A stretch of 12,974 nucleotides of DNA from a virus (lineage: Duplodnaviria > Heunggongvirae > Uroviricota > Caudoviricetes). The notes under the pieces are model-generated. The model saw only the letters and a program-made list of their open reading frames with translations, was not told the origin of the DNA and did no database searches. Positions 1,216 through 12,974 of this stretch are shown here, in pieces. The stretch lies in IMG/VR virus record IMGVR_UViG_2648501669_000022, positions 1 to 12,974 of that record; one strand, 5' to 3'. Positions within the stretch are counted from its first letter, which is position 1. Each line of letters opens with the position of its first letter. The position numbers were made by a program, and so were the translations under genes.

Positions 1216-1343
1216 CTGGTTGAGTATACAGTAGTAGACTTTGAGCGACGAAAGAAAAGGCTGTGTCTAGGGTCGCTCCCGAAAATCCGTACACCTCGAC
1301 GGACTGGTACAGCCACTACAGTAGAGGACGCTGAGGTGTGCGT

Positions 1344-2141
1344 ATGATTGATATTCATGCCGAATTAAACGAATACAAAAAAGATTTTATTTCTTTACGT
1401 GAATTTCTTGAGGTCGTGCTTAAGGTCGCTGGTGATGATTATGATGTTTCAGATGTCATAACTTGGATACTCAGGAGAATAAGCGGAGAACATATCCGCC
1501 TGTACACAGTAAATGAATTTAAGCTGTTGGAATCTTTTTGTAGCCCGTATCGGGATGAATTTGATTATGATGTTCTTTATAGAAATCTGAATGCGGTTCG
1601 GAAACGTGGTTGTTTACCTGGTGAGAGGGATGAAAATGGTTTTCTGGTGTCCGGTTATTGGGAAGATCCCGAATTTGAGAACATTGGATTTATAAGGGGT
1701 GAAATTTTCGCAATTTTTCCCGATGTCCTTGACGCGTTAACGAAGCTGGAAGGCGCTAACTCTTCTGAAAATGACGAGGCACAAGGACGCGATATTGAAA
1801 AGAAAGAGTTGCGTACAGAGGATGATTTATTATCCCAAATCGCAATGCTGGAAAAAGAAAACGCAGAGTTAAGGGCAAGGATAGAGCAGTTAGAGCAAGA
1901 GCGCCCGATACACTTATATAAATACTGGGATAAAGACCCATTAGCTAAGGCTATTGAGATTAGAAACAGAGAGTGGGCCAATTACGATCCAGAAAATGAT
2001 TTTGCCACCAGGGGAAATCAAGAAGCGATAACCAGGGAGCTTAAGCAGTGGGGGGCAAGTAATGCACTTGCAACGCTCATAGAGAGGACTGCCTGCCCTA
2101 TTAACCGAGACAACAGCCAAAAGAACGCAAAGCCGGATTAA
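1344..2141 (+). CDS. Hypothetical cargo protein (265 aa) with a central leucine-zipper-like coiled coil; function unknown
   Basis: ATG at 1344 with GAGGT 6 nt upstream (the track's 1338 start is a GTG lying on the SD). Visibly AT-richer codon usage than its neighbours. Heptad-like segment LLSQIAMLEKENAELRARIEQLEQER. Followed immediately by a strong intrinsic terminator. No catalytic motif recognised. Confidence 0.65.
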   Translation: MIDIHAELNEYKKDFISLREFLEVVLKVAGDDYDVSDVITWILRRISGEHIRLYTVNEFKLLESFCSPYRDEFDYDVLYRNLNAVRKRGCLPGERDENGFLVSGYWEDPEFENIGFIRGEIFAIFPDVLDALTKLEGANSSENDEAQGRDIEKKELRTEDDLLSQIAMLEKENAELRARIEQLEQERPIHLYKYWDKDPLAKAIEIRNREWANYDPENDFATRGNQEAITRELKQWGASNALATLIERTACPINRDNSQKNAKPD

Positions 2142-2154
2142 CGCACCATACCGC

Positions 2155-2197
2155 ATACCCTGAGGGTGATTTACTGTTACCCTCAGGGTATTTTTTT
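2155..2197 (+). terminator. Rho-independent terminator after the cargo gene
   Basis: Perfect 13-bp stem ATACCCTGAGGGT (2155-2167) / ACCCTCAGGGTAT (2179-2191), 11-nt loop, then a run of 7 T (2191-2197). Confidence 0.8.
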
Positions 2198-2214
2198 ATC
2201 TTCCCCGTCAATTT

Positions 2215-2302
2215 TACCATCACCCTTAGGGTAGATTTCCTCCCGATTACCATCACCCTTATGGTTAATTTCCTTCCGGTAACCATTAGGCCTGAGGGTA
2301 TG
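2215..2302. repeat. Tandem 33-bp direct repeat (2.6 copies) carrying ACCCT-N-AGGGT palindromes, upstream of alpA
   Basis: Unit 1 (2215-2247) and unit 2 (2248-2280) are 28/33 identical; partial third unit 2281-2302. Palindromes ACCCTTAGGGT (2222-2232), ACCCTTATGGT (2255-2265), CCTGAGGGT (2291-2299); the same palindrome forms both arms of the upstream terminator. Confidence 0.7.
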
Positions 2303-2368
2303 AAAATATTCGTTATTTCTGTGCCATGATTACCTCGTCAAATTGAGTAGACGTTATGAGGTAAATAT

Positions 2369-2566
2369 ATGTCAAATACGCTTATTCGTTTAACAGAAGT
2401 TCAGCGTAGAACTGGATATAGCAAGGCATGGATTTATCGCCTTATGGGGCAAGGTAAATTTCCTGCATCAGTTAAAATTGGCTCGCGAGCTATTGCTTTC
2501 GTTGAGAGTGAAATTGACGAGTGGATTAATCAGCGTATTGCGGAATCACGCGGAACAGCTACCTGA
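2369..2566 (+). CDS. alpA: AlpA-family (Xis/MerR-like HTH) transcriptional regulator
   Basis: 65 aa; RLTEVQRRTGYSKAWIYRLMGQGKFPASVKIGSRAIAFVESEIDEWINQR matches the AlpA/Vis-type signature found next to P4-family integrases. GAGG 7 nt upstream of the ATG. Confidence 0.85.
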   Translation: MSNTLIRLTEVQRRTGYSKAWIYRLMGQGKFPASVKIGSRAIAFVESEIDEWINQRIAESRGTAT

Positions 2567-2643
2567 TTAAATGGCTACGGGGCTTTTCCCCCCAGCTATC
2601 CACCAGCAAATAAAAGTAACTTAATTCGATAGCAGGAGTTTTT

Positions 2644-3444
2644 ATGAAACTGCGAAAAACGCCCGTACAGGGGCAGGGCTTCGTTCGGCCTGAAAACCAG
2701 AATCTGCAAAATTTCGGCGAAATTATCCCGATTATTTCCGGCGTTATTGGCGGGAGTGAAACCACTATTGTTAGCGCCAGAGCGTTACATAAGGCGTTAG
2801 GTGTAGGGCGCGTTTTCCGTTCGTGGATCAAGGGGCGCATTGAAGAATACGGGTTCACGGAAGGCGTGGATTATGAGGTTGTTGAATATTTGAGCCGACC
2901 CGATCCGGTGAGCGCAAAATCTCGCCAGCAAACCGCTCTTGAGTACATCATCACAGTGAACATGGCGAAAGAACTGGCGATGGTCGAACGTACCGAACAG
3001 GGCCGCGCCGTTCGCCAGTACTTTATCAAATGCGAGGAGGAGCTACACAAGGTAGCGCCAGTGCGTTCCGCAGCGTTACGCCGGGAACTGAAAGCCCGTA
3101 TCACCGTTGCCAGCTACTTTAAGCCAATGTGTGCCGCGCTGGAGGCGTACCGGGCTGAACTGGGTAAAAACACGTTCCAGCACCACTACACCACGGAAGC
3201 CAATATGCTGGCGCGTATCGTGCTGGGTGGCATGACTGCAAAACAGTGGGCGCAGGCGAACGGCATCACAGGCGAACCACGCGACCACATGAGCACGTTG
3301 CAGCTTGAGCACCTTTCTTACCTTGAGCAGAGCAATATCACGCTGATTGAGTTAGGCCAGGGCTACCACCAGCGGAAAGCTGAATTAATTCGTCTTTCGC
3401 AGCGTTGGTTAGCCCGTCGCATGGAGGAAAACAGCCATGTGTAA
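2644..3444 (+). CDS. AntA/AntB-type antirepressor-like protein (N-terminal domain), C-terminal domain unknown
   Basis: 266 aa; N-terminal segment SARALHKALGVGRVFRSWIKGRIEEYGFTEGVDYEV resembles the AntA/AntB N-terminal domain as I remember it. AGGAG 5 nt upstream of the ATG. Confidence 0.6.
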   Translation: MKLRKTPVQGQGFVRPENQNLQNFGEIIPIISGVIGGSETTIVSARALHKALGVGRVFRSWIKGRIEEYGFTEGVDYEVVEYLSRPDPVSAKSRQQTALEYIITVNMAKELAMVERTEQGRAVRQYFIKCEEELHKVAPVRSAALRRELKARITVASYFKPMCAALEAYRAELGKNTFQHHYTTEANMLARIVLGGMTAKQWAQANGITGEPRDHMSTLQLEHLSYLEQSNITLIELGQGYHQRKAELIRLSQRWLARRMEENSHV

Positions 3445-3750
3445 CGCTCTGACCGTTACAAAAAGAAAAAGCGCCCCGTTGCCGGAGCGCCTTTGTGAAC
3501 GAATAGCCTACTGCGCCATATTGCTTACTGTCTACGAGGCAGATTATAGCGTTGTGGTCGCACAGAGTGAAGGCGCAGATCACCGTTACTACAGCACACC
3601 AGAAATGCAGAATATTTTGCTGCAAAATGTCGTTGGCCACGCTGTCCGGAAAGCAAAAAATTTTGCTGGTGGCGTGACTGATACGATTTTTTCTGGTTGC
3701 TCGGTGCTGATCAACTTAACCTGGACTTATGTACAACATTGCAACTATTC

Positions 3751-3897
3751 CTACTTTAAGCTGAATGTAACTTTACCTATATCATTAGAGGTATGGTCGC
3801 GCTTGACCTCAATTTCACCATTTTGTAGCCCTGCTACAAAAAAATATAAAAGTGTCAATGTTGCTGCAATCAGTAACCATTTTCCAAAAATATACAT
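3751..3897 (-). CDS. Small membrane peptide (48 aa), not in the ORF track
   Basis: Translated by hand from the minus strand: MYIFGKWLLIAATLTLLYFFVAGLQNGEIEVKRDHTSNDIGKVTFSLK. One predicted TM helix at the N-terminus. Starts 21 nt downstream of the Arc-like stop on the same strand; AT-rich; weak SD-like AAGGG upstream. Confidence 0.35.
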   Translation of the reverse strand: MYIFGKWLLIAATLTLLYFFVAGLQNGEIEVKRDHTSNDIGKVTFSLK

Positions 3898-3918
3898 TCT
3901 TGATTTTACCCTTAATCG

Positions 3919-4092
3919 TCAACCTTTTGGCACGATGCCTCGCTGTTGTAATTCTTTGCGGAGCACTCGTTTAATCCAGGTAGCTAATGAGGTGTCGCCG
4001 TCTGCTTTGGCTGCCTCCTCAAGTTGTGCCCTAAATTCTTCTGGTAGCCGCATTTGGTATGGTGGCGATCGTTTTTCTAATGGTGTTGACAT
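3919..4092 (-). CDS. Arc/MetJ-type ribbon-helix-helix DNA-binding protein (57 aa), not in the ORF track
   Basis: Translated by hand from the minus strand: MSTPLEKRSPPYQMRLPEEFRAQLEEAAKADGDTSLATWIKRVLRKELQQRGIVPKG. Beta-strand-like PYQMRLP followed by two helices is the Arc/Mnt pattern. The start codon is embedded in a palindromic operator. Confidence 0.65.
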   Translation of the reverse strand: MSTPLEKRSPPYQMRLPEEFRAQLEEAAKADGDTSLATWIKRVLRKELQQRGIVPKG

Positions 4093-4144
4093 GGTAATTA
4101 CCCATAATTACTATAGTTACACGGTAATTACCATTGTACTTACC
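4093..4144. promoter_or_regulatory. Divergent promoter/operator region: perfect 10-bp palindrome GGTAATTACC x2 plus a degenerate third site
   Basis: GGTAATTACC at 4093-4102 (abutting the Arc-like start codon) and 4123-4132, 30 bp centre to centre; degenerate copy GTACTTACC at 4136-4144; TATAGT-like -10 for the minus strand at 4111-4116. Confidence 0.55.
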
Positions 4145-4228
4145 ATTGCAAAAAAAACAACGCCCCGGACTGCGGGAACAGTACCAGGGCGTCTAACCAC
4201 CAACGATAGCGAAAGTATCGAGGTAGCT

Positions 4229-4432
4229 ATGATAAATCATACCACACACCCGCAAGGGCGGGACTCGCACAACCTGAATAAATACATCTGGCGTTTTATC
4301 GCCCTGAGCACGGCACAACCGCGCGTAATTCACATCGAGGCCACCAGCGAACAGGAAGCACGCCAGCAATCTCCTGATGGCTGCGTGATGGTATTCGCCG
4401 CCCGTATTCGCCAGGAGGTGCACCATGCATAA
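4229..4432 (+). CDS. Hypothetical protein (67 aa), first gene of the replication operon
   Basis: This is only the 3' part of the 331-aa track ORF (3437-4432). ATG at 4229 with GAGGT 4 nt upstream; the upstream 800 nt of that ORF overlaps the Arc-like gene and the intergenic region and translates to low-complexity sequence. Stop overlaps the next start. Confidence 0.5.
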   Translation: MINHTTHPQGRDSHNLNKYIWRFIALSTAQPRVIHIEATSEQEARQQSPDGCVMVFAARIRQEVHHA

Positions 4433-4790
4433 CCTGTCAATTTCTGACCTTAACAGCATTCAGTTTGATGAGAAATTTACCGGGCAGCTACTGGTCAATG
4501 TGGAGAATGGACGCGTGGTAAGTAATTACCACCTGCCGGATGGTGCAATTGCCGGAAGTGTTGAAGCATTGCTGGAGCTGGCAGAACGTGCGCGACTGAT
4601 TAAGCCGTCAACGTGCCATCACGATGATGATCTGCATTTTACCGGACGCATGGTGAGTCACTACGAAAACGGCGTTGAGGTATCCCGCGAACGTATGCGT
4701 GATAATTGCTGTTTCGGAACACTGCCGGAATTTATCGAATTGCTGACCAGTTGCGGTTATCAGGTTATTCAGGGGGTGAATCATGGATAA
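4425..4790 (+). CDS. Hypothetical protein (121 aa) made of two tandem copies of a ~50-aa FTG-motif domain
   Basis: AGGAGGTG 4 nt upstream of the ATG. Internal repeat: FTGQLLVNVENGRVVSNYHL... and FTGRMVSHYENGVEVSRER.... Start and stop both overlap neighbouring genes. Confidence 0.6.
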   Translation: MHNLSISDLNSIQFDEKFTGQLLVNVENGRVVSNYHLPDGAIAGSVEALLELAERARLIKPSTCHHDDDLHFTGRMVSHYENGVEVSRERMRDNCCFGTLPEFIELLTSCGYQVIQGVNHG

Positions 4791-4983
4791 TCAGCAAGCA
4801 ACAATGACAATTACCCTGAGTGTGCCAGATGATTTCACCGGACGCGTACTGGTTTACCTGGATAAAGGGAAAGTGAAATCACAATGCCGACTGAAAAGTA
4901 ATGAGATTGTTGGTTCTCCTGAATTTTTTTCTGAACTTTGTATTCGTGCGAAAATAAAACCGGAACTGCTGACAGGAAAATAA
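4783..4983 (+). CDS. Hypothetical protein (66 aa), single-copy paralogue of the FTG-motif domain
   Basis: FTGRVLVYLDKGKVKSQCRL...GSPEFFSELCIRAKIKPE aligns with both repeats of the upstream gene; AGGGGGTGA upstream. Confidence 0.6.
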   Translation: MDNQQATMTITLSVPDDFTGRVLVYLDKGKVKSQCRLKSNEIVGSPEFFSELCIRAKIKPELLTGK

Positions 4984-4987
4984 AACC

Positions 4988-5278
4988 ATGAAAAAGAAAA
5001 ATTCTGGCTTTACTGCCAGCGGCCCCGCTCGGCCTGAAATCAGACACGGAGATATTTACCGCGACACCAGACGTGGGGGACGAGTGGTTATTCGTCACGT
5101 TACGCCAGGCAATATCACCTACCGCCGTGAGGCTTACGAATATGACTGCGTAATGCCGCGCCGTCAGTTTGAGCGTGATTTTATTCTGGTGGAAAACAAA
5201 CAACAGGCGGTGGCAAGACGTGCAGCCACGAATATTAAAAAAATCCGGGCAATGTTGGTTGCGGGAGGTAAGAAGTGA
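4988..5278 (+). CDS. Hypothetical basic protein (96 aa)
   Basis: ORF with AGGAAAA upstream; stop overlaps the GTG start of the helicase gene. No family recognised with confidence. Confidence 0.5.
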   Translation: MKKKNSGFTASGPARPEIRHGDIYRDTRRGGRVVIRHVTPGNITYRREAYEYDCVMPRRQFERDFILVENKQQAVARRAATNIKKIRAMLVAGGKK

Positions 5279-6687
5279 AAAACGCACCGAATTTGAAATA
5301 TCAGCCGAAGGATAAATTCACTGAGGTAATCATTTTTGCCGGGACGGACGCTTACTCCCATGCTCAACACTGGATTGAAAGCGAAGGACGGAAACACGGC
5401 GATAATGTGCCACCTGTTTACCTGGGGCCAAAGCAACTGGCAGACCTGGCGAATATCCGCATTATTGACGAGAAACGCCGCTTTGCACGTGTCTATCTCG
5501 CGGGGGAGATCGAACCAATCCAGATCAATGCTATCGCTGAAAAGCTGGCGCTGGCTGGCGTACAGGAGGCGAAATTATACAAAGGTATCACCGACCGGGA
5601 GCCGGAGAACTGGCGCGACTACCTGCAACGGATCCGCGAACAGGCAGAGCGCGAAGAAATGCTTACTGACGAGCAATACAGCCAGCGAAAAACCACACTA
5701 CCAATGAGTATTGGATCTGCAGGGTACGACACACAGCTTGATTATGTCGTTAAGGGCGTGATTCCGGCTAATTCATTGTGCAGCACATACGGCGCGAGCG
5801 GTTCCTATAAATCGTTCCTCGCGTGTTCCTGGGCGTGTCATGTTGCCACGGGTCGCCACTGGGGAGGCCGCAGGGTGGCGCATGGTTCGGTGATGTATGT
5901 CGTCGGTGAAGGTGGCATTGGTGTCCCTCGTCGTATCAAAGCATGGGAAATCGTTAATGATGAACGGGTGAAAAATCTGTACCTGGTAAACCGCCCGATT
6001 TTTCCGGCGGTCCCGCTTGATGTTGATGAAATGGTCATCGCTTCCCGTCAGGTTGAACGGGAAACGGGTAAACCGGTACGCATGATTATTCTGGATACGC
6101 TGGCGCGTTGCTTTGGCGGTAATGATGAAAATGACGCGCGGGATATGGGGGCGTTTATCCGTGGATGTGACGAACTGAAACGACGCACGGGGGCCACGGT
6201 ACTGGTGGTTCACCATTCCGGCAAGGATGAAACAAAAGGGGCGCGTGGTTCCAGTGCATTTCGTGCATCTCTGGACGCTGAATACCGTATTCGCCGTGAA
6301 GGTGCGGACAGTGAAGCCCTGGTTATCTCCTGCACCAAAATGAAGGACGCGGAGGAACTGAAAGAGGCTGCATATGATTTACGCGTGGTGGAGCTTTTTA
6401 CCGACACTGACGGGGAGTTAATCACGTCGCTGGTGGTTGTGGATAAGCCGCGCCCACCTGTTGAACTGGAACGCATCGAGGAGGCCGGGAACAAGACGGA
6501 AAATCACGCTGCGCTATGGCAGTGCATCAGAACGCGAACAGCACACGGGGAGGCGTGCACTATCGCCCTTCTCCGCGATGATATGAAAAAGCTGGGGTAT
6601 GAAATGAAAAACTTCCGGCGCTGGCTGTACAAGCTGGAAAGCGACGGCGTAATCGCTATTGACGGTGATTATGTGCGCCCACTGTAA
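5275..6687 (+). CDS. RepA/DnaB-like RecA-fold replicative helicase (the family I remember as AAA_25), probable replication initiator of the island
   Basis: 470 aa; GTG start with GGGAGGT 5 nt upstream. Walker A-like GASGSYKS, Walker B-like ILDTLARCF, and VLVVHHSGK motif typical of RepA-type helicases. Its stop abuts the iteron array. Confidence 0.8.
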   Translation: MKNAPNLKYQPKDKFTEVIIFAGTDAYSHAQHWIESEGRKHGDNVPPVYLGPKQLADLANIRIIDEKRRFARVYLAGEIEPIQINAIAEKLALAGVQEAKLYKGITDREPENWRDYLQRIREQAEREEMLTDEQYSQRKTTLPMSIGSAGYDTQLDYVVKGVIPANSLCSTYGASGSYKSFLACSWACHVATGRHWGGRRVAHGSVMYVVGEGGIGVPRRIKAWEIVNDERVKNLYLVNRPIFPAVPLDVDEMVIASRQVERETGKPVRMIILDTLARCFGGNDENDARDMGAFIRGCDELKRRTGATVLVVHHSGKDETKGARGSSAFRASLDAEYRIRREGADSEALVISCTKMKDAEELKEAAYDLRVVELFTDTDGELITSLVVVDKPRPPVELERIEEAGNKTENHAALWQCIRTRTAHGEACTIALLRDDMKKLGYEMKNFRRWLYKLESDGVIAIDGDYVRPL

Positions 6688-7075
6688 AAAGTGAGGAGCA
6701 AAAGTGAGGATGGCGGGTAATTTAACAAAAAATCAACGCCACTCCTCACTTTCTCACCTGTATATAGGTCAAAAAGTGAGGAATGAAAAACATATTGTAA
6801 AACAAGACATTACAACAACAAGAAAAACAGGTGAGGAGCAGGACGGGAATAACAAAAAGTGAGGAACAAAAGTGAGGAATGGTGAGTTAATAGAAATGAG
6901 GTAATAAAAATAACAGGTAGGTTAAAAAACACACCATGCAAGATATTAACTAAAACTTAACTATTTACCTCACTTTTGCGTATATATAAGGATTAAAAAG
7001 TGAGTACTTAAAAATACATTTAAAATCATATTGTTATTAACTTCATAAATTTTCACTGTGCAGCAGGTGAGGAAT
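6688..7075. repeat. Putative origin of replication: AT-rich iteron array, core GTGAGGA
   Basis: Direct copies of GTGAGGA at 6691, 6704, 6776, 6831, 6859, 6872 and 7067; inverted copies at 6743-6749 (TCCTCAC) and 6967-6973 (ACCTCAC); variants GTGAGTT (6882) and GTGAGTA (7010). Most are preceded by an A-run; the region is strongly AT-rich. Confidence 0.7.
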
Positions 7076-7153
7076 TAAAAAATTAGGAATGTTAAAAATG
7101 AAAACAGAATGTTGTGTCAGTGCCGTTGGGCAACGTAGCAATCAGTAAAAACG

Positions 7154-7696
7154 ATGGGGCAAAGCATGACTAAGCTGACCATTAACAGAAAACCTAAAGG
7201 CATTTACGGCACGCCGCAGAAAACGACGCAGGCGGCGCAGGAGCAGGATAAAACCACGTCGGCGCATAAAGTGATGCCCGGTAACCAGAAAGCGCAGCAG
7301 AAGCCCACAGGGGCGACACCGTGGCGGCATATGACCAAGCGCCAGCGCAAAAACCGCAGGCGCGTTAACCGCCTTATCGAACTGTGGCCAGAATTATTCA
7401 GCCGGGAAGCACCGAAGCCGCTTAAGGTGGGGATATTTGACGACCTGATGCAGGATCTCGCCGTCAGGGGGCTGGCATTCGGGCCAGGGGCATTACGTGC
7501 GACGCTGGCATCTTATGCGCAGTGTCCGCGCTATTACCGCGCCTTAATGGCTGGTGGGGTACGCTACGACCTGAAAGGCCAGCCGTGCGGCGAGGTGACA
7601 CCACAGGAACAACAGGACGCAGAAACGCGGCTGGTGGCGCTGAATGAGAAGCGCAAACGTCAGCGCCGGGCAGCAAAGGAGAAAACAGGCGCATGA
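7154..7696 (+). CDS. ProQ/FinO-domain RNA-binding protein with a basic N-terminal extension
   Basis: 180 aa; LIELWPELFSREAPKPLKVGIFDDL...RYDLKGQPCGEVTPQE parallels the ProQ N-terminal/FinO signature as I remember it (PLKIGIF.DL ... R.DLDG.PCGEL). The first ~70 aa are Lys/Arg/Gln-rich. Exact start uncertain (ATG 7154 or 7166). Confidence 0.7.
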   Translation: MGQSMTKLTINRKPKGIYGTPQKTTQAAQEQDKTTSAHKVMPGNQKAQQKPTGATPWRHMTKRQRKNRRRVNRLIELWPELFSREAPKPLKVGIFDDLMQDLAVRGLAFGPGALRATLASYAQCPRYYRALMAGGVRYDLKGQPCGEVTPQEQQDAETRLVALNEKRKRQRRAAKEKTGA

Positions 7697-7980
7697 TTCA
7701 CGACAGCAAAGCGGAAGCACTGGAAGCGCGTGGTCTGTACCGGAGAGCGGCGGCGCGGTGGGCTGAGGTCATCATGCTGGCGAATGATGACAAGGCACGG
7801 GAACAGGCGGCAAAACGTCGCGCGGAATGTATCCGCAAGGCAGCACGCCCACCAGCAAGGCAGGATAATTTCGGGGAGATGCGCGAAACCATCAGCCGGG
7901 CACATGCCGGGATGGGATTACATCAGCCCAATGGTAAGGCATTCAGGAAATACCCTGGATCGAAAAATTGCAGTCAGTGA
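7693..7980 (+). CDS. PerC-family transcriptional activator-like protein
   Basis: 95 aa; N-terminus MIHDSKAEALEARGLYRRAAARWAEVIM fits the PerC/Pch pattern (E..G.WRRAA.RW) from memory. ATGA overlap with the upstream stop; followed by tandem terminators. Confidence 0.6.
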   Translation: MIHDSKAEALEARGLYRRAAARWAEVIMLANDDKAREQAAKRRAECIRKAARPPARQDNFGEMRETISRAHAGMGLHQPNGKAFRKYPGSKNCSQ

Positions 7981-7985
7981 CGGAG

Positions 7986-8009
7986 GCCGGGATTTTTCCC
8001 GGCTTTTTT
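7986..8009 (+). terminator. Rho-independent terminator (first of two)
   Basis: Stem GCCGGG (7986-7991) / CCCGGC (7998-8003), loop ATTTTT, then 6 T (8004-8009). Confidence 0.75.
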
Positions 8010-8022
8010 GTGCCAGTAAAAA

Positions 8023-8056
8023 GCCCGCAGCCAGAAGTGTTGCGGGCTTTGTTTTT
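8023..8056 (+). terminator. Rho-independent terminator (second of two)
   Basis: Stem GCCCGCA (8023-8029) / TGCGGGC (8041-8047), 11-nt loop, then TTTGTTTTT (8048-8056). Confidence 0.7.
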
Positions 8057-8181
8057 CAGGTGATTGAAGTCAATGGGAAGAACGCGATCATCATGCGTTA
8101 TTGTTTCATAAATTGCAATGATGTAGATCGTCATTTCAGTTTGTGCAATCATAATCATTGTTTTGTTCAGGAGATATGACT

Positions 8182-8355
8182 ATGAGAAAAGCCAGCGTGA
8201 AACCCGTTTTACTCGCTCGTGAGCAGATTGAAGCATTACAGCGCATCCAGGACGAGGAACGCCGCAATTCTCCGCTGGGGATTGCTCCGAGCATTCATGA
8301 GGTCGCCCGGCGTTTAATGCAGCGGGCGCTTTATCCCGTAGAACGTCCGGCCTGA
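8182..8355 (+). CDS. Small hypothetical protein (57 aa), first gene of the late-like operon
   Basis: AGGAG (8169-8173) lies 8 nt upstream of the ATG at 8182; the track's 8158 start and the 8176 ATG have no usable SD spacing. Helical, charged sequence; possible small regulator. Confidence 0.5.
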   Translation: MRKASVKPVLLAREQIEALQRIQDEERRNSPLGIAPSIHEVARRLMQRALYPVERPA

Positions 8356-8394
8356 TGGTCGTGATTTTTTGGTGAAAAAAGAGAGGTGATAAAA

Positions 8395-8973
8395 ATGCCA
8401 GCAAGCAAAGAAGATTTGCGATTAAAACTGATGGAGGTGGTTAACGCTCTGTCAGAGTCGCAGGGCAGCACTCCGCAGGAGATTATCGAAATTCTGAATG
8501 CGATCCCCGCACAGGATTTCATAAAAGAGGATAACGCTAATCAAAACATCGTCGCGTCAGTCGAAGATGAATCCTCACTGGCAGAAGCCCAGGCTAAAGC
8601 AGATTCCGCATACAGCAATATGGGCCGTCGCGCTCCAGCCCCGTTTGCTGGTGAAAAGTCGATGGATTACCGCAAGCGTGCATTAATTGGTGCACAGAAG
8701 CTGGCTAAAAAATTCAGTGATGTGGATATTCGTTCCGTTTCAGATTCTGCAACGCTGGCGGTGCTGGAAGATCAGATTTACCAGGCTGCAAAAGACAGTG
8801 TTCAGTGGGCCGTGGAAAACACGCCGGGCCATTTGGGTAAAACCGTAAGAATGGATGAAGCTGGTCGTCGTATTACTGAATATCAGGGCGATCCGAACGT
8901 CTGGCTGAACGCCTTCAAAATCCCTCCCCGTCGCCTGGTCAAAATTAACACTGCAAGCCTCGCGGGGGCATGA
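8395..8973 (+). CDS. Hypothetical protein (192 aa), acidic helical N-terminal half
   Basis: ATG at 8395 with GAGAGGTG 6 nt upstream (the track's 8386 start is a GTG inside the SD). No family recognised. Confidence 0.6.
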   Translation: MPASKEDLRLKLMEVVNALSESQGSTPQEIIEILNAIPAQDFIKEDNANQNIVASVEDESSLAEAQAKADSAYSNMGRRAPAPFAGEKSMDYRKRALIGAQKLAKKFSDVDIRSVSDSATLAVLEDQIYQAAKDSVQWAVENTPGHLGKTVRMDEAGRRITEYQGDPNVWLNAFKIPPRRLVKINTASLAGA

Positions 8974-8990
8974 AAAACGTGCTGAGTTCA

Positions 8991-9021
8991 GCCCTGCCGG
9001 ATTTGGCGGGGCTTATTGCTT
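8991..9021 (+). promoter_or_regulatory. Intergenic stem-loop with U-rich tail (weak terminator or attenuator)
   Basis: Stem GCCCTGCC (8991-8998) / GGCGGGGC (9005-9012) with one G-U wobble, loop GGATTT, then TTATTGCTT. Confidence 0.35.
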
Positions 9022-9037
9022 ATAACCGGATAACATT

Positions 9038-9709
9038 ATGCTTTTAACAGAAATTGAGGCGGCAAAGCAGATTCGGGACGGTCAGCTACCGTCGCCTTAT
9101 CAGTTTTCCAACATGTGGCTGGTTAACCTGCGTATTACAGGAACCGGTATGGCCTACCGCGCCGAAGAAAAAGAATTTGTCTGGCGTTCACCGCAAACTT
9201 ATCTCAATCCGCAGTTCCTGGAACGTTGCGCCGGAGTACCCGTCATTATCGACCATCCCGAAGGCAAAACCATTGAAGACGTTGGCGAACGGTCGCGCAT
9301 TATTGGCACCGTCATGTTGCCGTATATTCGCGGTGACGAGGTGTGGGGTGTATGCCGGATTTACGGGCAGGAAATCATCGATTACATCCAGAAAGCACGG
9401 GGGGAGGTATCCACCAGCCCGTCGGTTGTGTTTTGTGGTGCGTCCGGTGGGGCAGAAGTTCCTGATGTAATGGGCGAGGACAATTTTTTCATTGAGGGTA
9501 CGCCATTCCTTATCGATCACGTTGCGCTCGTGCCGCTTGGTGTTTGGGATAAGGGCGGGAAACCATCGGGTGTGGAGGTAACAACGCCGACAGCAGAAGA
9601 ACAGCTCGCCGGAATGGTCCGGGACGTTATTGATGCGGCCTGCAAGCCAGCCCTGGAAAAACTGGAAGAAATATCCGGGCGGCTGGCTCAACTGGAAAAA
9701 ACAGAGTGA
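9038..9709 (+). CDS. Hypothetical protein (223 aa); weak resemblance to HK97-type prohead proteases
   Basis: Size and a His (VPVIIDHPEG, residue 73) to Ser (GEVSTSP, residue 125) spacing of about 52 aa recall HK97-family prohead proteases; this is memory of motif shape only. C-terminus is coiled-coil-like. Confidence 0.55.
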   Translation: MLLTEIEAAKQIRDGQLPSPYQFSNMWLVNLRITGTGMAYRAEEKEFVWRSPQTYLNPQFLERCAGVPVIIDHPEGKTIEDVGERSRIIGTVMLPYIRGDEVWGVCRIYGQEIIDYIQKARGEVSTSPSVVFCGASGGAEVPDVMGEDNFFIEGTPFLIDHVALVPLGVWDKGGKPSGVEVTTPTAEEQLAGMVRDVIDAACKPALEKLEEISGRLAQLEKTE

Positions 9710-9716
9710 GTGAATC

Positions 9717-10334
9717 ATGAAAATTGCTAAAAACTTAAATCTGATTATCCCTGTGCGCACTGAAAAGGGAAATGGCTGGATCCATGCCACGCCGATCAGC
9801 AAAGAGGTGTTTAAAGAGCATTTCTTCATCCTGAGTAAAACCTTTTCTGCCATTTTTTCTGAAGGTCTTGGTGTTGTTGCGGGTCCGCGCGTTGCCTGCC
9901 TTATGCTGGAGAAAATCTCCCGTGACTCCGGTTTATGGGATGGGGAGAAAGGCATACGTAATACGCTCATAAACGAAATTATTCGCCTGGCAAACCTTGT
10001 TTATCCAGTGGAGGGCAAAGGCTACGACACAATCCCTCTCGATATGGCGCTGGAGCGTGAAATCGTTGATTTGGACGAAGTGGCGGGTGAACTTGTTTTT
10101 TTTACATGCGTCTCGTCGATAAATTCCCCGGAGCAGACGAAGGGGACTATGGATGCGGTGAATGGAATATGGAGCACTCAATGCTCGTCCTTGAGTCTTA
10201 CGGAATGGATCGCTTCATTGCCGACATTGAAGCCTGCCGTCAGTTCTGGCGCGACGGCGAACACGTCATCAGCGACATCCTCGACTACTCAGCCGGAGCC
10301 GGATTCAGAGACATCTGTGCAGATTCCGGTCTGA
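9717..10334 (+). CDS. Hypothetical protein; zero-frame ORF convincing only to about 10105, possible tail-assembly-chaperone-like gene
   Basis: GAGTGAG 6 nt upstream of the ATG. The first ~129 codons look protein-like; after the T8 run the zero frame becomes Ser/Thr-rich low complexity and loses the G-rich first codon position, which the -1 frame shows instead. Confidence 0.5.
   Translation: MKIAKNLNLIIPVRTEKGNGWIHATPISKEVFKEHFFILSKTFSAIFSEGLGVVAGPRVACLMLEKISRDSGLWDGEKGIRNTLINEIIRLANLVYPVEGKGYDTIPLDMALEREIVDLDEVAGELVFFTCVSSINSPEQTKGTMDAVNGIWSTQCSSLSLTEWIASLPTLKPAVSSGATANTSSATSSTTQPEPDSETSVQIPV
10097..10103 (+). other. Candidate -1 slippery heptamer T_TTT_TTT within a T8 run (10096-10103)
   Basis: Zero-frame codons are GTT TTT TTT. 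The -1 frame has a stop at 10088-10090, opens at 10091 and runs to 10399. Confidence 0.4.
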
Positions 10335-10399
10335 ATGTAAAAACAGCAGCTCAGTTTCGTGAGCTGCTCAAATTCAAGAATCCCGCAGGAGTATTGTAA
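10106..10399 (+). CDS. -1 frame ORF (97 codons from the ATG), likely translated as a frameshift extension of the upstream gene or as its own product
   Basis: Better codon-position bias than the overlapping zero frame; its stop overlaps the next start (TAATG at 10397-10401), indicating translational coupling to the 680-aa gene. Confidence 0.5.
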   Translation: MRLVDKFPGADEGDYGCGEWNMEHSMLVLESYGMDRFIADIEACRQFWRDGEHVISDILDYSAGAGFRDICADSGLNVKTAAQFRELLKFKNPAGVL

Positions 10400-12441
10400 T
10401 GTCAGGTAATCAGATGCCAGTTCTGACGCTGGACGTTAATGAAGAACACCTCAAACGGCTTGAGGCAATTTTTGAAAAGTATCGCAACGGGCTGATGATC
10501 GGCCCTGCAGGAACGCCGATGAAAATACCGGGGCAAAGTGGGCGCAGCGTGGGGGCAGGCTTACCCGTGGCGGCAAAATCTGGTCGGACAGGACCGGATG
10601 TATCCGGGAGAGTGAGGGACGAAAAAGGGCGCTTTGTCGGCAGTGGAAAAACAGCAGATTCGTTCGTAAGCAACTATAAAGGTCGCGGCGAAACGATGTT
10701 TGATAAGTATCTCAGCGGGCTGGGGAAAAATGCCCAACAGACGCTGAAAACTTACAAGCAGATCAATTCTACGCTACAGACGACCACTTCGAGATTAAAC
10801 AACCTGTTTAAAACAACCGTATCGTGGGGGACAAAACTTGCGGTTATGGGCGTTGCCGGGCCGTTTGGCTTTGGCATGATGTCTCGTAGTGTTGTAGAGA
10901 AACAGAAAAATGCAGATGAGCTGGTGGCAACGCCGGGAGAATTAAAGGCGGCAGAGAGTACCTATTCACCTTATTTTTCCGGTGTTGGCAATGTGCTCAA
11001 TACACTGGCAGCCGCGCAAAATGATCAAGAACACCCCGCCCGCGTTGGCCTGCTTCATCTGGGGATTAATCCTGATAAAAACGCGACTGAAAACCTGCCT
11101 GTATTCCTGAAAAAGGTTGCAGAGCTGGCAAAGGAATATCAGGGAAGTGGTCTTACCCAGAGTATGCTCAGGGGAAGAGGGCTTGGATGGGTAAATTTTG
11201 GTCTTACTAACCAGTTAGTCAAATATCAGGACAAAATACCTGAACTCAACAAAGAGTTTTCGTTACGTGCAGCGCAGAATGATTCGTTACTGACCTCTGC
11301 ACATACAAGTAAATATCAGAATCTTACCAGTAACCTGGAAAAAAACTGGGATCGGCTTACCAGCGGATTTCAGGGAGCAATGGCGGGGAATGAAGACGCT
11401 TTAATCAGAATGTCTGATGGTACCACGAATGCTGCCCTGAATTTCATGAATGGTGAGAACTTTAAAAGGATTCTGACTGATGTTGAAACGGGGCTGGATA
11501 AACTTGGTAAGTACGTTAATGGCCCGGATTTTAATAACGACCTGAACAATTTTGCCGAAAACGTTGCAAAGGTCACCAAGGCACTTAGCGGATTTGTTGG
11601 TTTTGCCGTTGAACATCCCTGGCTTTTTGGGGCCGCAGTGCTTGCGGGGCCATCAAGAGTTGGTGCCGTGGCAGCCACAACAACCGGAGTTGCCGCTCGT
11701 GTTGTCGGTGGAAGTCTTCTTGGGGCTACAGCCGGAACAGTAGCAGGATTGGCTATTCCTACAAATAACACACCTACCACCAGTGAGGAAATGAAAGGGC
11801 TGGAGGGGCGTTTCAACTTTGATTATTTTAACGAAGTGCAGGAGTGGCAAAAAAACAATCCGGGTAAGGTCTGGCCTGGAGGATTGCAGGGATTTTCAAA
11901 TCAAGTAAACAGATCTGCATATTTATCCAGAGGGATCAGGAATAACAATCCCGGAAATCTTAATTTCGCAGGACAAAAAGGGGCTACCCTGGAATCGGGG
12001 CCAAATGCCCGTTTTGCCAGCTTCCCGACGATGCTGGAAGGCATTGCTGCCTTAGATCGGCAGGTAATGCTATACCTGAAACGCGGCAAAAATACGATTG
12101 ATCAGATCATTGATATTTATGCCCCTTCATCTGATGGAAATAACACATCGTCCTATAAAAGCTATCTCTCTCAGTACACCGGTTTAGGTGTTAAGGAGAA
12201 AATTGATGGTTCTAATTTTGAGGTCATGAAAAAGCTAATTCAGGGCATTATTAACCATGAAAATGGTGCTGCCGCTAAAGCTGTAAGTGTTGAAGATGTG
12301 ATCCGGGCGCTGGCTATGAATCGTGGGATTGTCCCTACAGCAGGAAATAATAATCAGAACGTTAAGCTTGATATTCTTCAAAAACCAGGCTCCGACATAG
12401 TCGCTCAACTGGCCGGATTTTCGGGGCTTATGCCGAGGTAA
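10399..12441 (+). CDS. Large tape-measure-like protein (680 aa) with Gly/Ala-rich hydrophobic segments and a C-terminal NNPGN-motif domain
   Basis: AGGAG 7 nt upstream of the ATG. Central segment AVEHPWLFGAAVLAGPSRVGAVAATTTGVAARVVGGSLLGATAGTVAGLAIP; N/T/S/K-rich helical regions; C-terminal RGIRNNNPGNLNF...IYAPSSDGNN. The gene itself is well supported; the function is a guess. Confidence 0.7.
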   Translation: MSGNQMPVLTLDVNEEHLKRLEAIFEKYRNGLMIGPAGTPMKIPGQSGRSVGAGLPVAAKSGRTGPDVSGRVRDEKGRFVGSGKTADSFVSNYKGRGETMFDKYLSGLGKNAQQTLKTYKQINSTLQTTTSRLNNLFKTTVSWGTKLAVMGVAGPFGFGMMSRSVVEKQKNADELVATPGELKAAESTYSPYFSGVGNVLNTLAAAQNDQEHPARVGLLHLGINPDKNATENLPVFLKKVAELAKEYQGSGLTQSMLRGRGLGWVNFGLTNQLVKYQDKIPELNKEFSLRAAQNDSLLTSAHTSKYQNLTSNLEKNWDRLTSGFQGAMAGNEDALIRMSDGTTNAALNFMNGENFKRILTDVETGLDKLGKYVNGPDFNNDLNNFAENVAKVTKALSGFVGFAVEHPWLFGAAVLAGPSRVGAVAATTTGVAARVVGGSLLGATAGTVAGLAIPTNNTPTTSEEMKGLEGRFNFDYFNEVQEWQKNNPGKVWPGGLQGFSNQVNRSAYLSRGIRNNNPGNLNFAGQKGATLESGPNARFASFPTMLEGIAALDRQVMLYLKRGKNTIDQIIDIYAPSSDGNNTSSYKSYLSQYTGLGVKEKIDGSNFEVMKKLIQGIINHENGAAAKAVSVEDVIRALAMNRGIVPTAGNNNQNVKLDILQKPGSDIVAQLAGFSGLMPR

Positions 12442-12446
12442 TACCC

Positions 12447-12974
12447 ATGCTAATGAGTAAAGCAGAATATGCTAAACACAAAGGCGTAAGCCGCCAGACA
12501 GTTTACGACTGGATCGAGAAAGGCGAAGTGGTCATGTCCGGTAAAAAAATCGATGTGGAAGCGACAGAGCAGCGGAACAGCCCACCAGCACAGGAAAAAG
12601 ACACAGTTTCTGAAATGTGGCCAGAGAGAACGCTGGAAATGACGTGGGGCGAGTTCTGGAAAGCAGTTAAGGCCAGAGACGGTAAAATCCCTGCACCAGT
12701 AACGGACGATGACATACAGCAGCGTGTGCAGGATGCAGCCGGGGAATTAGGCTGGGAAGTGCACTTTCTTGATGATGGTGCTATCTGCCTTGAGGATGAT
12801 GAAGGGCAGCATTACTTTGAAAAATACAATTTGCGAGGTAATGCCAGGCTGGCAATTCGTATGCTGCGTTGCGAACTCTGCTATGTTGCAGGTGATTATC
12901 CCGATGAACTGGAATCATGGAGTGAAGCCGGGCTAAACGCCCTGGCTGAATGGGAAAAATCAGGCCATCAATGA
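12447..12974 (+). CDS. HTH protein (175 aa) with a Nu1-like small-terminase N-terminal signature; candidate TerS or packaging-redirection factor
   Basis: GAGGT 7 nt upstream of the ATG. N-terminus SKAEYAKHKGVSRQTVYDWIEKGEVVMSGKKIDVEA parallels lambda Nu1 (KKQLADIFGASIRTIQNWQEQGMPVLRGGGKGNEVLYDSAA) from memory. Acidic C-terminal half. Stop TGA is the last codon of the window. Confidence 0.45.
   Translation: MLMSKAEYAKHKGVSRQTVYDWIEKGEVVMSGKKIDVEATEQRNSPPAQEKDTVSEMWPERTLEMTWGEFWKAVKARDGKIPAPVTDDDIQQRVQDAAGELGWEVHFLDDGAICLEDDEGQHYFEKYNLRGNARLAIRMLRCELCYVAGDYPDELESWSEAGLNALAEWEKSGHQ

What the first reader, a model, noticed from the sequence alone, without database searches (positions are those of the whole stretch)
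9717..10399. T8 slippery run with a -1 frame that opens two codons upstream and is translationally coupled to the next gene
The zero frame reads GTT TTT TTT, a T_TTT_TTT heptamer. The -1 frame has a stop at 10088-10090, opens at 10091 and continues for about 100 codons with better codon-position bias than the zero frame, and its stop overlaps the start of the 680-aa gene (TAATG). This is the geometry of the conserved G/GT-type programmed frameshift found immediately upstream of tape-measure genes in tailed phages (and E/E' in P2, which uses T_TTT_TTG). The alternative is a homopolymer-length frameshift mutation or phase-variable tract: a T9 allele would fuse both frames into one ~227-aa ORF.
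Basis: partly seen in the sequence, partly recalled or inferred. Interest (0 to 1): 0.7.

Follow-up and report, generated by a model that had tools for sequence, protein, structure and literature searches.

The report
Conserved frameshift in phage tail chaperone
The run of eight T's is a conserved programmed -1 frameshift site in a previously unannotated phage tail-assembly-chaperone gene just upstream of the tape-measure gene: a textbook kind of signal, here with an unusually long two-frame overlap and sitting in a small satellite-like island.

Summary
T8 lies at 10096-10103 and the zero frame reads GTT TTT TTT. The -1 frame opens after TGA 10088-10090 and runs to TAA 10397-10399, which overlaps the ATG of the 680-aa gene.

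It is not a mutation. In 88 homologous loci the run is T8 in 78. Three more keep an in-phase TTT TTY pair with a shorter run. These include propagated Klebsiella, Pantoea and Yersinia myophages at about 30% protein identity. Across 54 unique close sequences, 37 of 38 invariant residues vary synonymously, yet the two Phe codons stay TTT TTT (one TTC). Fused ORFs are rare T9, or once T6, alleles at the same site.

In complete prophages the gene sits sheath, tube, this gene, SLT tape-measure protein, baseplate. That is the G/GT slot.

Both frames are really coding after the shift site. Zero-frame residues 130-170 are folded (AlphaFold pLDDT 94-96) and conserved in relatives at 35-45% identity. 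The -1 frame encodes a conserved helical T-like domain. The zero-frame stop lies 76 codons past the site, against an average of about 26 nt in actinophage chaperones.

Best reading: -1 ribosomal frameshifting on U_UUU_UUU. No stimulatory RNA structure was found, and transcriptional slippage may contribute. This is a new member of a known kind, of modest interest.

The parts
9717..10334 (+). Zero-frame ORF, the 'G'-like short product (205 aa)
   Evidence: Full-length match to phrog_11810, function unknown. 431 homologues, nearly all 205 aa. AlphaFold pLDDT 89.7, pTM 0.80.
10097..10103 (+). Slippery heptamer T_TTT_TTT, the last seven T's of the T8 run 10096-10103. Codons 127-129 are GTT TTT TTT.
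   Evidence: T8 in 78 of 88 loci. The TTT TTT pair is invariant while flanking codons vary synonymously. In-phase T7, T7C and T6 variants occur in relatives.
10088..10090 (+). TGA that closes the -1 frame two codons upstream of the run
   Evidence: It is part of the Gly-Glu codons GGT GAA. It is not conserved in relatives that use GGC GAG, where the -1 frame opens 17 or more nt upstream.
10103..10399 (+). -1 frame segment ('T'-like domain, 98 codons plus TAA) that is joined to residues 1-129 to give the 227-aa 'GT' product ...GELVFF|YMRLVDK...
   Evidence: Matches phrog_14324 over its whole length. Conserved motifs YG..RF..D.D..R.FWRDG...LD...GF....FR. pN/pS is 0.41 and 0.34 in its 3' two thirds.
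10104..10226 (+). Zero-frame residues 130-170. This is the folded post-shift part of G and overlaps the variable linker of the -1 product.
   Evidence: pLDDT 94-96, helices 119-135 and 138-152, strand 155-157, helix 161-167. Motif conserved in relatives at 35-45% identity. pN/pS 0.62.
10227..10334 (+). Zero-frame Ser/Thr-rich disordered tail (residues 171-205) and TGA stop. It overlaps the conserved core of the -1 domain.
   Evidence: pLDDT 54-69. pN/pS 0.93, so no constraint of its own is detectable. The tail length after FF is narrowly distributed across the family (median 59 aa), and the proteins listed mostly end in [ILV]-P-x.
10387..10391 (+). AGGAG Shine-Dalgarno of the tape-measure-like gene, 7 nt before its ATG
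10399..12441 (+). 680-aa tape-measure-like protein with a lytic transglycosylase region. Its start overlaps the -1 stop (TAATG).
   Evidence: phrog_7694 over its full length; tape-measure phrog_2276 and transglycosylase PHROGs over residues 466-634. 51% identical to the prophage SLT protein over residues 1-460.

Best explanation
[quoted passage not shown] Here it is carried on a small integrative island.

Most ribosomes read straight through the T8 run and make a 205-aa 'G' protein. A minority slip back one nucleotide while the two Phe-tRNAs sit on UUU UUU (heptamer U_UUU_UUU, 10097-10103). They continue in the -1 frame to the TAA that overlaps the tape-measure start, and make a 227-aa 'GT' protein. 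GT consists of residues 1-129 plus a 98-residue helical T-like domain.

By analogy with lambda gpG/gpGT and P2 E/E+E', both products would bind the tape-measure protein through the shared N-terminal part, and the T-like domain would recruit the tail tube subunit. A fixed low ratio of GT to G would be set by the slip frequency.

Shown here: the anatomy, conservation of the site, of both reading frames and of the gene order, and the foldedness of G.

Inferred: that the shift is ribosomal, its efficiency, and the binding partners.

Unlike the classical case, the shift is not near the end of G. It falls inside a helix two thirds of the way along, so G and GT have alternative C-terminal parts encoded by a 228-nt dual-coding overlap.
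For: 1. Position. Prophages in E. coli DH5alpha and W, phage Rac-SA53, and phages Chronis, PdC23 and vB_YenM_30.14 all have the same order: tail sheath (phrog_205, E=9.5e-55), a 143-148-aa gene in the tube position (phrog_6566, function unknown), this gene, SLT tape-measure protein, then a baseplate hub (phrog_196).

2. Site conservation. Of 88 loci, 78 are T8. Three more keep an in-phase TTT TTY pair with a shorter run: PdC23 TGT TTT TTT, L070 GTT TTT TTC, and L081 ACC TTT TTT. L082 (GTG TTT TTT) is a further in-phase T6.
- F128 and F129 stay TTT while 37 of 38 other invariant residues use more than one codon.
- 135 of 150 cluster representatives at 50% identity have FF at the junction. The next residue is mostly Thr, Ile or Met, whose codons start with A, which gives Tyr in the -1 frame.

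3. The -1 ORF of about 100 codons carrying the conserved T-like domain is present in all of them and ends at or just before the tape-measure start.

4. tblastn with the fused protein hits all 12 phage records in two pieces, that is in two frames.

5. Fused ORFs are rare and are T9, or in one case T6, alleles at the same site with the G tail still open in the other frame.

6. Selection by frame:
- N-terminal region, zero frame: pN/pS 0.20. Off-frames there give 1.75-1.96.
- Overlap 391-510: zero 0.62, -1 0.80.
- Overlap 511-615: zero 0.93, -1 0.41.

7. U_UUU_UUU and U_UUU_UUC shift above 0.1% without stimulators in E. coli. U_UUY is the second-best A-site tetramer, and H_HH.U_UU.Y is among the most efficient heptamer classes (PMC4066793).
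Against: - No direct measurement exists: no peptide, reporter or ribosome-profiling data.
- No conserved stimulatory structure was found. RNAalifold gives -6 kcal/mol with essentially no covariation, and the single-sequence z-score is 0.09. The purine-rich stretch upstream (GGGTGA, 6 nt from the heptamer) is not conserved in sequence or spacing.
- An eight-U run is also a plausible RNA-polymerase slippage site and would give the identical protein.
- In this window the gene is not in a complete tail module, so its products may have no function here.
Confidence: 0.8

Rival explanations
1. Transcriptional slippage is the main mechanism. RNA polymerase adds one extra U on the U8/A8 hybrid. A fraction of mRNAs are therefore T9-like and encode the 227-aa fusion directly. 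The two-product logic and function are the same, but the shift is made by the polymerase.
For: T8 is the dominant form, in 78 of 88 loci. UUUUUUU is under-represented in all three frames of E. coli genes, and slippage or indels were proposed as reasons (PMC4066793). No ribosomal stimulator was found. The protein product would be indistinguishable.
Against: Relatives keep the two-frame architecture with shorter runs: T7 in PdC23, T7C in L070, and T6 after C or G in L081 and L082. What is invariant is the in-phase TTT TTY codon pair, not a run of 8 or more. From general knowledge, efficient slippage by E. coli RNA polymerase needs about 9 or more A or T. That figure was not tested here.
Confidence: 0.13
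2. Frameshift mutation or phase-variable tract. The ancestral gene would be a single 227-aa ORF (T9). T8 would be a null or switchable allele, and the 205-aa ORF an accident.
For: T9 alleles exist (L023, L077, L078, L084; P0001 on 6 contigs) and one T7 allele is flagged as a pseudogene by PGAP. Homopolymers mutate easily.
Against: T8 is the state in 78 of 88 loci over a 30-100% identity range, including propagated phages. The 205-aa clusters stand for thousands of contigs. The zero-frame region after the run is conserved at 35-45% identity, is predicted to fold with pLDDT 94-96, and has a narrow length distribution. A pseudogene tail would show none of this. Three of the four fused proteins P0001-P0004 have their indel at other positions, which looks like sporadic error.
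Confidence: 0.04
3. Two independent genes. The -1 ORF would be translated on its own from ATG 10106 as a 97-aa protein, as PHROGs (phrog_14324) and some annotations imply, with no frameshift.
For: ATG 10106-10108 directly follows the run and is kept in the close family (FFYM...). The ORF is listed and annotated separately in some records.
Against: No Shine-Dalgarno precedes it; the eight T's lie immediately upstream. The Met is absent in more distant relatives (FFYCGL, FFYGFL, FFYCEL, LFYVSL), whereas the TTT TTT pair is kept. The rare fused alleles show that N-terminal part plus T domain forms a contiguous ORF.
Confidence: 0.03

Closest known systems
Phage lambda gpG/gpGT tail assembly chaperones (-1 frameshift at G_GGA_AAG; Levin 1993; Xu, Hendrix and Duda 2004, 2013, 2014, as summarised in PMC5009743)
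   Same: The gene lies immediately upstream of the tape-measure gene. There is a short abundant product and a rarer -1 product that share an N-terminal part. The -1 ORF ends at the tape-measure start. The arrangement is conserved across phages with little sequence similarity. No stimulatory structure is evident.
   Different: The slip site is U_UUU_UUU, not G_GGA_AAG. It lies at codon 129 of 205, not a few codons before the G stop. The zero frame runs 76 more codons here, with a family median of 59. G therefore has about 40 folded residues and a tail that GT lacks. The host phages are myoviruses. No detectable sequence or significant fold similarity was found.
Phage P2 gpE / gpE+E' (myovirus tail chaperones, -1 shift on T_TTT_TTG; recalled from the literature and mentioned as 'P2 and related phages' in PMC5009743)
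   Same: The genes lie downstream of contractile-tail sheath and tube genes and upstream of the tape measure. The slip site is U-rich with Phe-Phe.
   Different: From memory, P2 E is 91 aa and the shift is near its 3' end. Here the last base is U (or C), the overlap is 228 nt, and the proteins are unrelated in sequence (no Pfam or PHROG link).
Annotated tail assembly chaperone frameshifts of actinobacteriophages (SEA-PHAGES set used to train PRFect, PMC10885494)
   Same: The gene position and the logic of two joined CDS are the same.
   Different: The average distance from slip site to the zero-frame stop there is 26 nt. Here it is 228 nt. PRFect uses closeness to the in-frame stop as a feature and recovered only 2 of 43 Atkins-set genomes where that distance exceeded 51 nt, so such a tool may miss this family.
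E. coli dnaX tau/gamma -1 frameshift
   Same: A homopolymer-type heptamer in E. coli yields two products with a shared N-terminus.
   Different: dnaX uses A_AAA_AAG with an upstream Shine-Dalgarno-like element 10 nt away and a downstream hairpin, and shifts at about 50%. Neither stimulator is found here.

Membership tests
G/GT-type tail assembly chaperone with programmed frameshift (a functional class, defined by Xu et al. 2004) | The gene lies between the major tail (tube) gene and the tape-measure gene | tested here: met
   In complete relatives the order is sheath (phrog_205), a gene in the tube position, this gene, SLT tape-measure protein, baseplate hub. In the window itself only the tape-measure neighbour is present; a DUF2213 gene lies upstream.
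G/GT-type tail assembly chaperone with programmed frameshift | Two overlapping ORFs, with the downstream one in the -1 (or +1) frame and lacking a start of its own | tested here: met
   The -1 ORF of about 100 codons is present in all relatives. ATG 10106 has no Shine-Dalgarno and is not conserved in distant relatives.
G/GT-type tail assembly chaperone with programmed frameshift | A canonical slippery sequence (X_XXY_YYZ) in the overlap, conserved among relatives | tested here: met
   T_TTT_TTT in 78 of 88 loci, plus T_TTT_TTC (L070) and the in-phase T7 of PdC23. Two relatives have only N_TTT_TTT with N = C or G.
G/GT-type tail assembly chaperone with programmed frameshift | [quoted passage not shown] | tested here: not met
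   The zero frame continues 76 codons here, with a family median of 59. Residues 130-170 are folded in G and absent from GT. This departs from the classical geometry but not from the two-product logic.
G/GT-type tail assembly chaperone with programmed frameshift | Both products are made at a fixed low ratio and both are needed for tail assembly; neither is in the virion | not testable with these tools
   This needs a reporter assay, mass spectrometry and phage genetics.
Known tail-assembly-chaperone protein families and folds (Pfam Phage_TAC families, solved chaperone structures) | Sequence or fold similarity to a described family | tested here: not met
Phase-variable homopolymer (contingency locus) | Tract length polymorphic among close relatives, with ON and OFF alleles both common | tested here: not met
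   T8 in 78 of 88 loci, and T9 in 4, one of which (L077) also has a second upstream frameshift. The fused 227-aa clusters are singletons or few contigs, against thousands for the 205-aa form.

The most novel reading that the evidence does not exclude
The window is not a decayed prophage but a phage satellite. The element is about 14-15 kb and carries int, AntA, an Icd-like gene, a primase, ProQ/FinO and PerC. It occurs at two or more chromosomal sites with different integrases.

It deliberately keeps only four morphogenesis genes:
- a scaffold-domain homologue,
- a protease-domain homologue,
- the G/GT chaperone with an intact frameshift site,
- its own tape-measure protein.

On this reading the frameshift is part of a toolkit with which a satellite re-programs a helper myophage's tail, and perhaps capsid, assembly. 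In addition the frameshift acts as a switch between two alternative C-terminal modules within a folded domain, rather than as a simple extension.
Probability: 0.2. Interest if true: 0.65.

Novelty: new member of a known kind. Interest (0 to 1): 0.3.

Why it matters
Annotation. A widespread family is annotated everywhere as one or two hypothetical proteins and split into two PHROGs of unknown function. It has 626 cluster representatives at 50% identity, is present in 92 of 5,426 complete E. coli genomes, and occurs in Klebsiella, Pantoea and Yersinia phages. It can now be annotated as a tail assembly chaperone with a joined CDS.

Method. The shift site lies 177-228 nt before the zero-frame stop, and both frames are constrained in part of the overlap. 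Frameshift finders that favour sites close to the in-frame stop may miss such cases.

Biology. G and GT differ by alternative C-terminal modules. If this is confirmed, the picture of GT as G plus T would need loosening for this myophage group.

Context. A satellite-like element that retains an intact chaperone and tape-measure pair is a lead for work on satellite-helper interactions.

Tried and rejected
- RNA stimulator. RNAalifold on 22 diverse sequences (10096-10225 and equivalents) gave only a weak 5-bp stem with almost no covariation. Single-sequence folding gave z = 0.09. I make no claim of a stimulatory structure.
- Upstream Shine-Dalgarno-like element. GGGTGA lies 6 nt before the heptamer but varies with the Gly-Glu codons and differs in spacing among relatives. 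Rejected as a conserved stimulator.
- The search for related loci with a 17-sequence alignment failed because no stretch was conserved enough. With the single distant protein P0137 it found nothing in viral contigs. DNA of distant relatives was obtained through the look-up of encoding contigs and tblastn of phage records instead.
- Xu et al. 2004 could not be read because it is not held. Statements about it rest on the review PMC5009743 and on memory.
- The GT model is only moderate (pLDDT 70.7 from an 11-sequence alignment). It was used only for 'helical, with a disordered linker'.
- Single-sequence ORF statistics for the zero-frame tail are weak (P = 0.14). The case for its coding status rests on comparative and structural evidence, and only for residues 130-170. 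The Ser/Thr-rich tail shows no selection of its own (pN/pS 0.93).

Full report
**1. The observation**

The sequence is as described.
- An ATG at 9717 opens a 205-aa ORF ending at TGA 10332-10334.
- At 10095-10103 it reads GTT TTT TTT. This is a T8 run at 10096-10103 and the heptamer T_TTT_TTT at 10097-10103.
- The -1 frame has TGA at 10088-10090 and is then open to TAA 10397-10399, which shares its last A with the ATG of a 680-aa ORF (10399-12441).
- A -1 shift on the heptamer, or one extra T, gives a 227-aa protein with the junction ...GELVFF|YMRLVDK...

It continues for 76 codons.

In a codon-resampling test, keeping the zero-frame protein leaves the -1 frame open in 0.7% of trials. Keeping the -1 protein leaves the zero frame open in 14%.

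**2. What the gene is**

*The window.* It is an E. coli integrative island. Its genes are an integrase, AntA, a primase/AAA_25 protein, ProQ/FinO, a short DUF2213 protein, this ORF, and a 680-aa protein with a transglycosylase region that also hits tape-measure PHROGs.

*Distribution.* The 683-nt region has homologues in 92 of 5,426 complete E. coli genomes at 84-100% identity, and in two phage records.

*Position in complete elements.* In the prophages of E. coli DH5alpha (Peking) and E. coli W, and in phage Rac-SA53, the homologue sits after a 445-aa tail sheath protein (phrog_205, E=9.5e-55) and a 143-aa protein in the tube position. It sits before the SLT-domain protein, and a baseplate hub (phrog_196) lies a few genes on. 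This is the canonical slot of the tail assembly chaperone pair.

*Current annotation.* Neither Pfam nor the records name it. PHROGs holds the zero ORF as phrog_11810 and the -1 ORF as a separate phrog_14324, both of unknown function.

**3. Is the T8 a mutation or a signal?**

*Close relatives.* In 71 IMG/VR loci (N-terminal identity 66-100%) the run is T8 at the same codon phase in 68.
- Two are T9 (L023, L077).
- One is GTT TTT TTC (L070), still an X_XXY_YYZ heptamer.
- The zero ORF is 205 aa in 68 of the 71 (210 aa in L060; the two T9 loci differ), and the -1 ORF is about 100 codons in all the loci without T9.
- Flanking codons vary freely (GAA/GAG, CTT/CTC/CTG, GGT/GGC/GGG/GGA). Among 38 invariant non-Met/Trp residues in the N-terminal part, 37 use more than one codon across 54 unique sequences. 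F128 is TTT in 54 of 54 and F129 in 53 of 54. Other conserved Phe positions use both TTT and TTC.

*Protein databases.* Of 431 hits, nearly all of the 120 listed are 205 aa, and some clusters stand for 200 to more than 1,000 contigs. Only four are fused. Only one of those (P0001, 6 contigs) is fused at the run. The other three have indels elsewhere.

*Distant relatives.* A search of cluster representatives at 50% identity found 626 relatives.
- Most are 186-205 aa and match the fused query only over residues 1-130.
- 135 of the top 150 have FF at the junction.
- The next residue is T, I or M in 118 of them. These codons start with A, which gives Tyr in the -1 frame.
- The tail after FF has a median of 59 residues, with 10th-90th percentiles of 54-79.

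*DNA of distant relatives:*

| Locus | Relative | Site |
|---|---|---|
| L079 | 45% identity | GTT TTT TTT ATT |
| L085 | Klebsiella phage Chronis | GTT TTT TTT ATG |
| L087 | Yersinia phage vB_YenM_30.14 | GTT TTT TTT ATG |
| L086 | Pantoea phage PdC23 | TGT TTT TTT ATT (T7) |
| L081 | metagenomic contig | ACC TTT TTT ACG (T6) |
| L082 | metagenomic contig | GTG TTT TTT ACT (T6) |

Each has a -1 ORF of 104-214 codons (104-121 in five of the six) carrying the same conserved domain and ending at or next to the tape-measure start.

*Fused representatives.* Where DNA was read, they are T9 (L078, L084) or T6 lacking one Phe (L083). In each the G-type tail is still open and recognisable in the other frame.

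*Census.* Over 88 loci: T8 78, T9 4, T7 3, T6 3.

The split architecture is therefore the conserved, functional state, and it is present in phages that were propagated in the laboratory. The pseudogene and phase-variation readings do not hold.

**4. Both frames are coding**

*Diversity by codon phase.* Values are for zero-frame positions 1, 2 and 3.

| Region (gene nt) | pos 1 | pos 2 | pos 3 |
|---|---|---|---|
| N-terminal part | 0.117 | 0.085 | 0.432 |
| Overlap | 0.12 | 0.207 | 0.197 |
| -1-only tail | 0.11 | 0.30 | 0.13 |

*Pooled pN/pS.*

| Region (gene nt) | zero frame | -1 frame | +1 frame |
|---|---|---|---|
| N-terminal 1-378 | 0.20 | 1.96 | 1.75 |
| 391-510 | 0.62 | 0.80 | 1.48 |
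| 511-615 | 0.93 | 0.41 | 1.01 |
| 619-678 | 0.92 | 0.34 | 2.20 |

*Zero-frame product.* An AlphaFold model built on 78 sequences has pLDDT 89.7.
- Residues 130-170, after the shift site, score 94-96. They form helix 138-152, strand 155-157 and helix 161-167.
- The shift site itself lies inside helix 119-135.
- Residues 171-205 are disordered.
- This post-shift segment is recognisably conserved in relatives at 35-45% identity (FFTxxSxMxxR...LWGxxxTSLxxTE...SLPTST). The proteins listed mostly end in an [ILV]-P-x motif.

*-1 product.* It has invariant Y162, G163, D170, R175, G196, F197 and R215 in an 11-sequence alignment. It is predicted to be helical after a disordered linker, though the model is only moderate at pLDDT 70.7.

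*How the two frames fit together.* The folded part of each frame mostly overlies the variable or disordered part of the other. The two overlap in constraint around gene nt 450-510. G and GT therefore share residues 1-129 and then carry alternative C-terminal modules.

**5. Mechanism**

The invariant feature is the in-phase UUU UUY pair, usually preceded by U. It is not a run of fixed length. This fits tandem -1 slippage of two Phe-tRNAs.

In E. coli, U_UUU_UUU and U_UUU_UUC are among the heptamers that shift at more than 0.1% without stimulators. U_UUY is the second-ranked A-site tetramer, and H_HH.U_UU.Y is listed among the most efficient classes (PMC4066793).

I found no conserved downstream structure and no conserved Shine-Dalgarno-like element. 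By my recollection lambda G/GT also needs none, and only a low ratio is required (about 30:1 in lambda; PMC5009743).

Transcriptional slippage on U8 would give the same protein and cannot be excluded as a contributor in the T8 lineages. The T6 and T7 relatives argue that it is not the conserved mechanism.

The TAATG overlap with the tape-measure gene is real. That gene has its own AGGAG 7 nt upstream, and most ribosomes terminate 64 nt earlier. Coupling is therefore not a necessary part of the design.

**6. Comparison with what is known**

Functionally this is a G/GT (lambda) or E/E+E' (P2) type chaperone frameshift. That class is defined by position and recoding, not by homology.

Met here:
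- gene position;
- the second ORF lacking its own start;
- a conserved slippery heptamer.

Not met:
- The shift is not near the end of G. The distance to the zero-frame stop is 228 nt here and about 177 nt at the family median. The average in 2,476 SEA-PHAGES frameshifted genes, nearly all of them tail chaperones, is 26 nt (PMC10885494).
- There is no detectable sequence or significant fold similarity to described chaperones.

I file it as a new, unannotated member of a known kind with a variant geometry.

**7. Verdict**

The alternative is rejected.

For specialists the phenomenon is expected upstream of a tape-measure gene, so interest is modest (0.3). The points worth keeping are:
- the family-wide annotation fix;
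- the mid-domain shift with a long dual-coding overlap;
- the island context described under noticed in passing.

Noticed in passing
window 1-12974; L002 1431-16970; L088 1943-15775: The window is a satellite-like integrative element of about 14-15 kb. It carries int, an HTH gene, AntA, an Icd-like gene, DUF4222, a primase, ProQ/FinO and PerC, plus only four homologues of a myophage morphogenesis module. The same layout occurs at two chromosomal sites with different integrases and primase types: tRNA-Gly/yecR in ETEC1748, and abgR/smrA in STEC346. Some host genomes hold 2-4 copies of the chaperone gene, while STEC346 holds only the island copy. It may be a satellite that supplies its own tail chaperone and tape measure.
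   Followed up: partly
window 8386-8973 and 9038-9709: The two genes upstream are homologous to the two halves of one phage gene, the 430-aa DUF2213 protein of Rac-SA53 (annotated there as 'TolA protein', note 'nudix'). They are in permuted order. 8386-8973 matches residues 295-423 (65% identity). 9038-9709 matches residues 1-228 (53% identity). PGAP calls the first one 'NUDIX hydrolase' in ETEC1748, but Pfam gave no hit here.
   Followed up: partly
window 10399-12441 and 12447-12974: The island's 680-aa tape-measure-like protein is 51% identical to the prophage SLT protein over residues 1-460 and then diverges, with a different C-terminal third. The next gene (175 aa) has no similarity to the gene that follows the tape measure in the prophages.
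   Followed up: partly
L003 2501-3117 (E. coli ETEC1706); L023, L077, L078, L084; L083: Tract-length variants occur at the same site. An A+T7 allele is flagged 'frameshifted' by PGAP. T9 alleles give a fused 227-233-aa ORF. One T6 allele is fused with a single Phe. Whether these are sequencing errors, replication-slippage variants in populations, or viable phages is unknown.
   Followed up: partly
zero-frame C-termini, e.g. window 10320-10331 (QIPV); L085, L086, L087; P0135, P0139, P0141, P0169, P0193: The short (G) products listed mostly end in a similar [ILV]-P-[S/T/V] motif after a Ser/Thr/Ala/Gly-rich disordered tail. Examples are QIPV, FIPS, HIPS, SIPT, LVPS, FLPS and SVPT. This hints at a conserved C-terminal docking peptide. 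The motif was not counted across the family.
   Followed up: no
L006 (PP818812.1, Actinobacillus phage vB_Apl-pPE4): A phage recorded as infecting Actinobacillus pleuropneumoniae is 86% identical at the nucleotide level to E. coli prophages across this region, with the same gene order. The host attribution looks odd.
   Followed up: no
12 phage records and RefSeq E. coli annotations: No record annotates ribosomal slippage or a tail assembly chaperone here. The gene is 'hypothetical protein', sometimes with the -1 ORF as a second hypothetical gene. PHROGs splits it into phrog_11810 and phrog_14324.
   Followed up: yes
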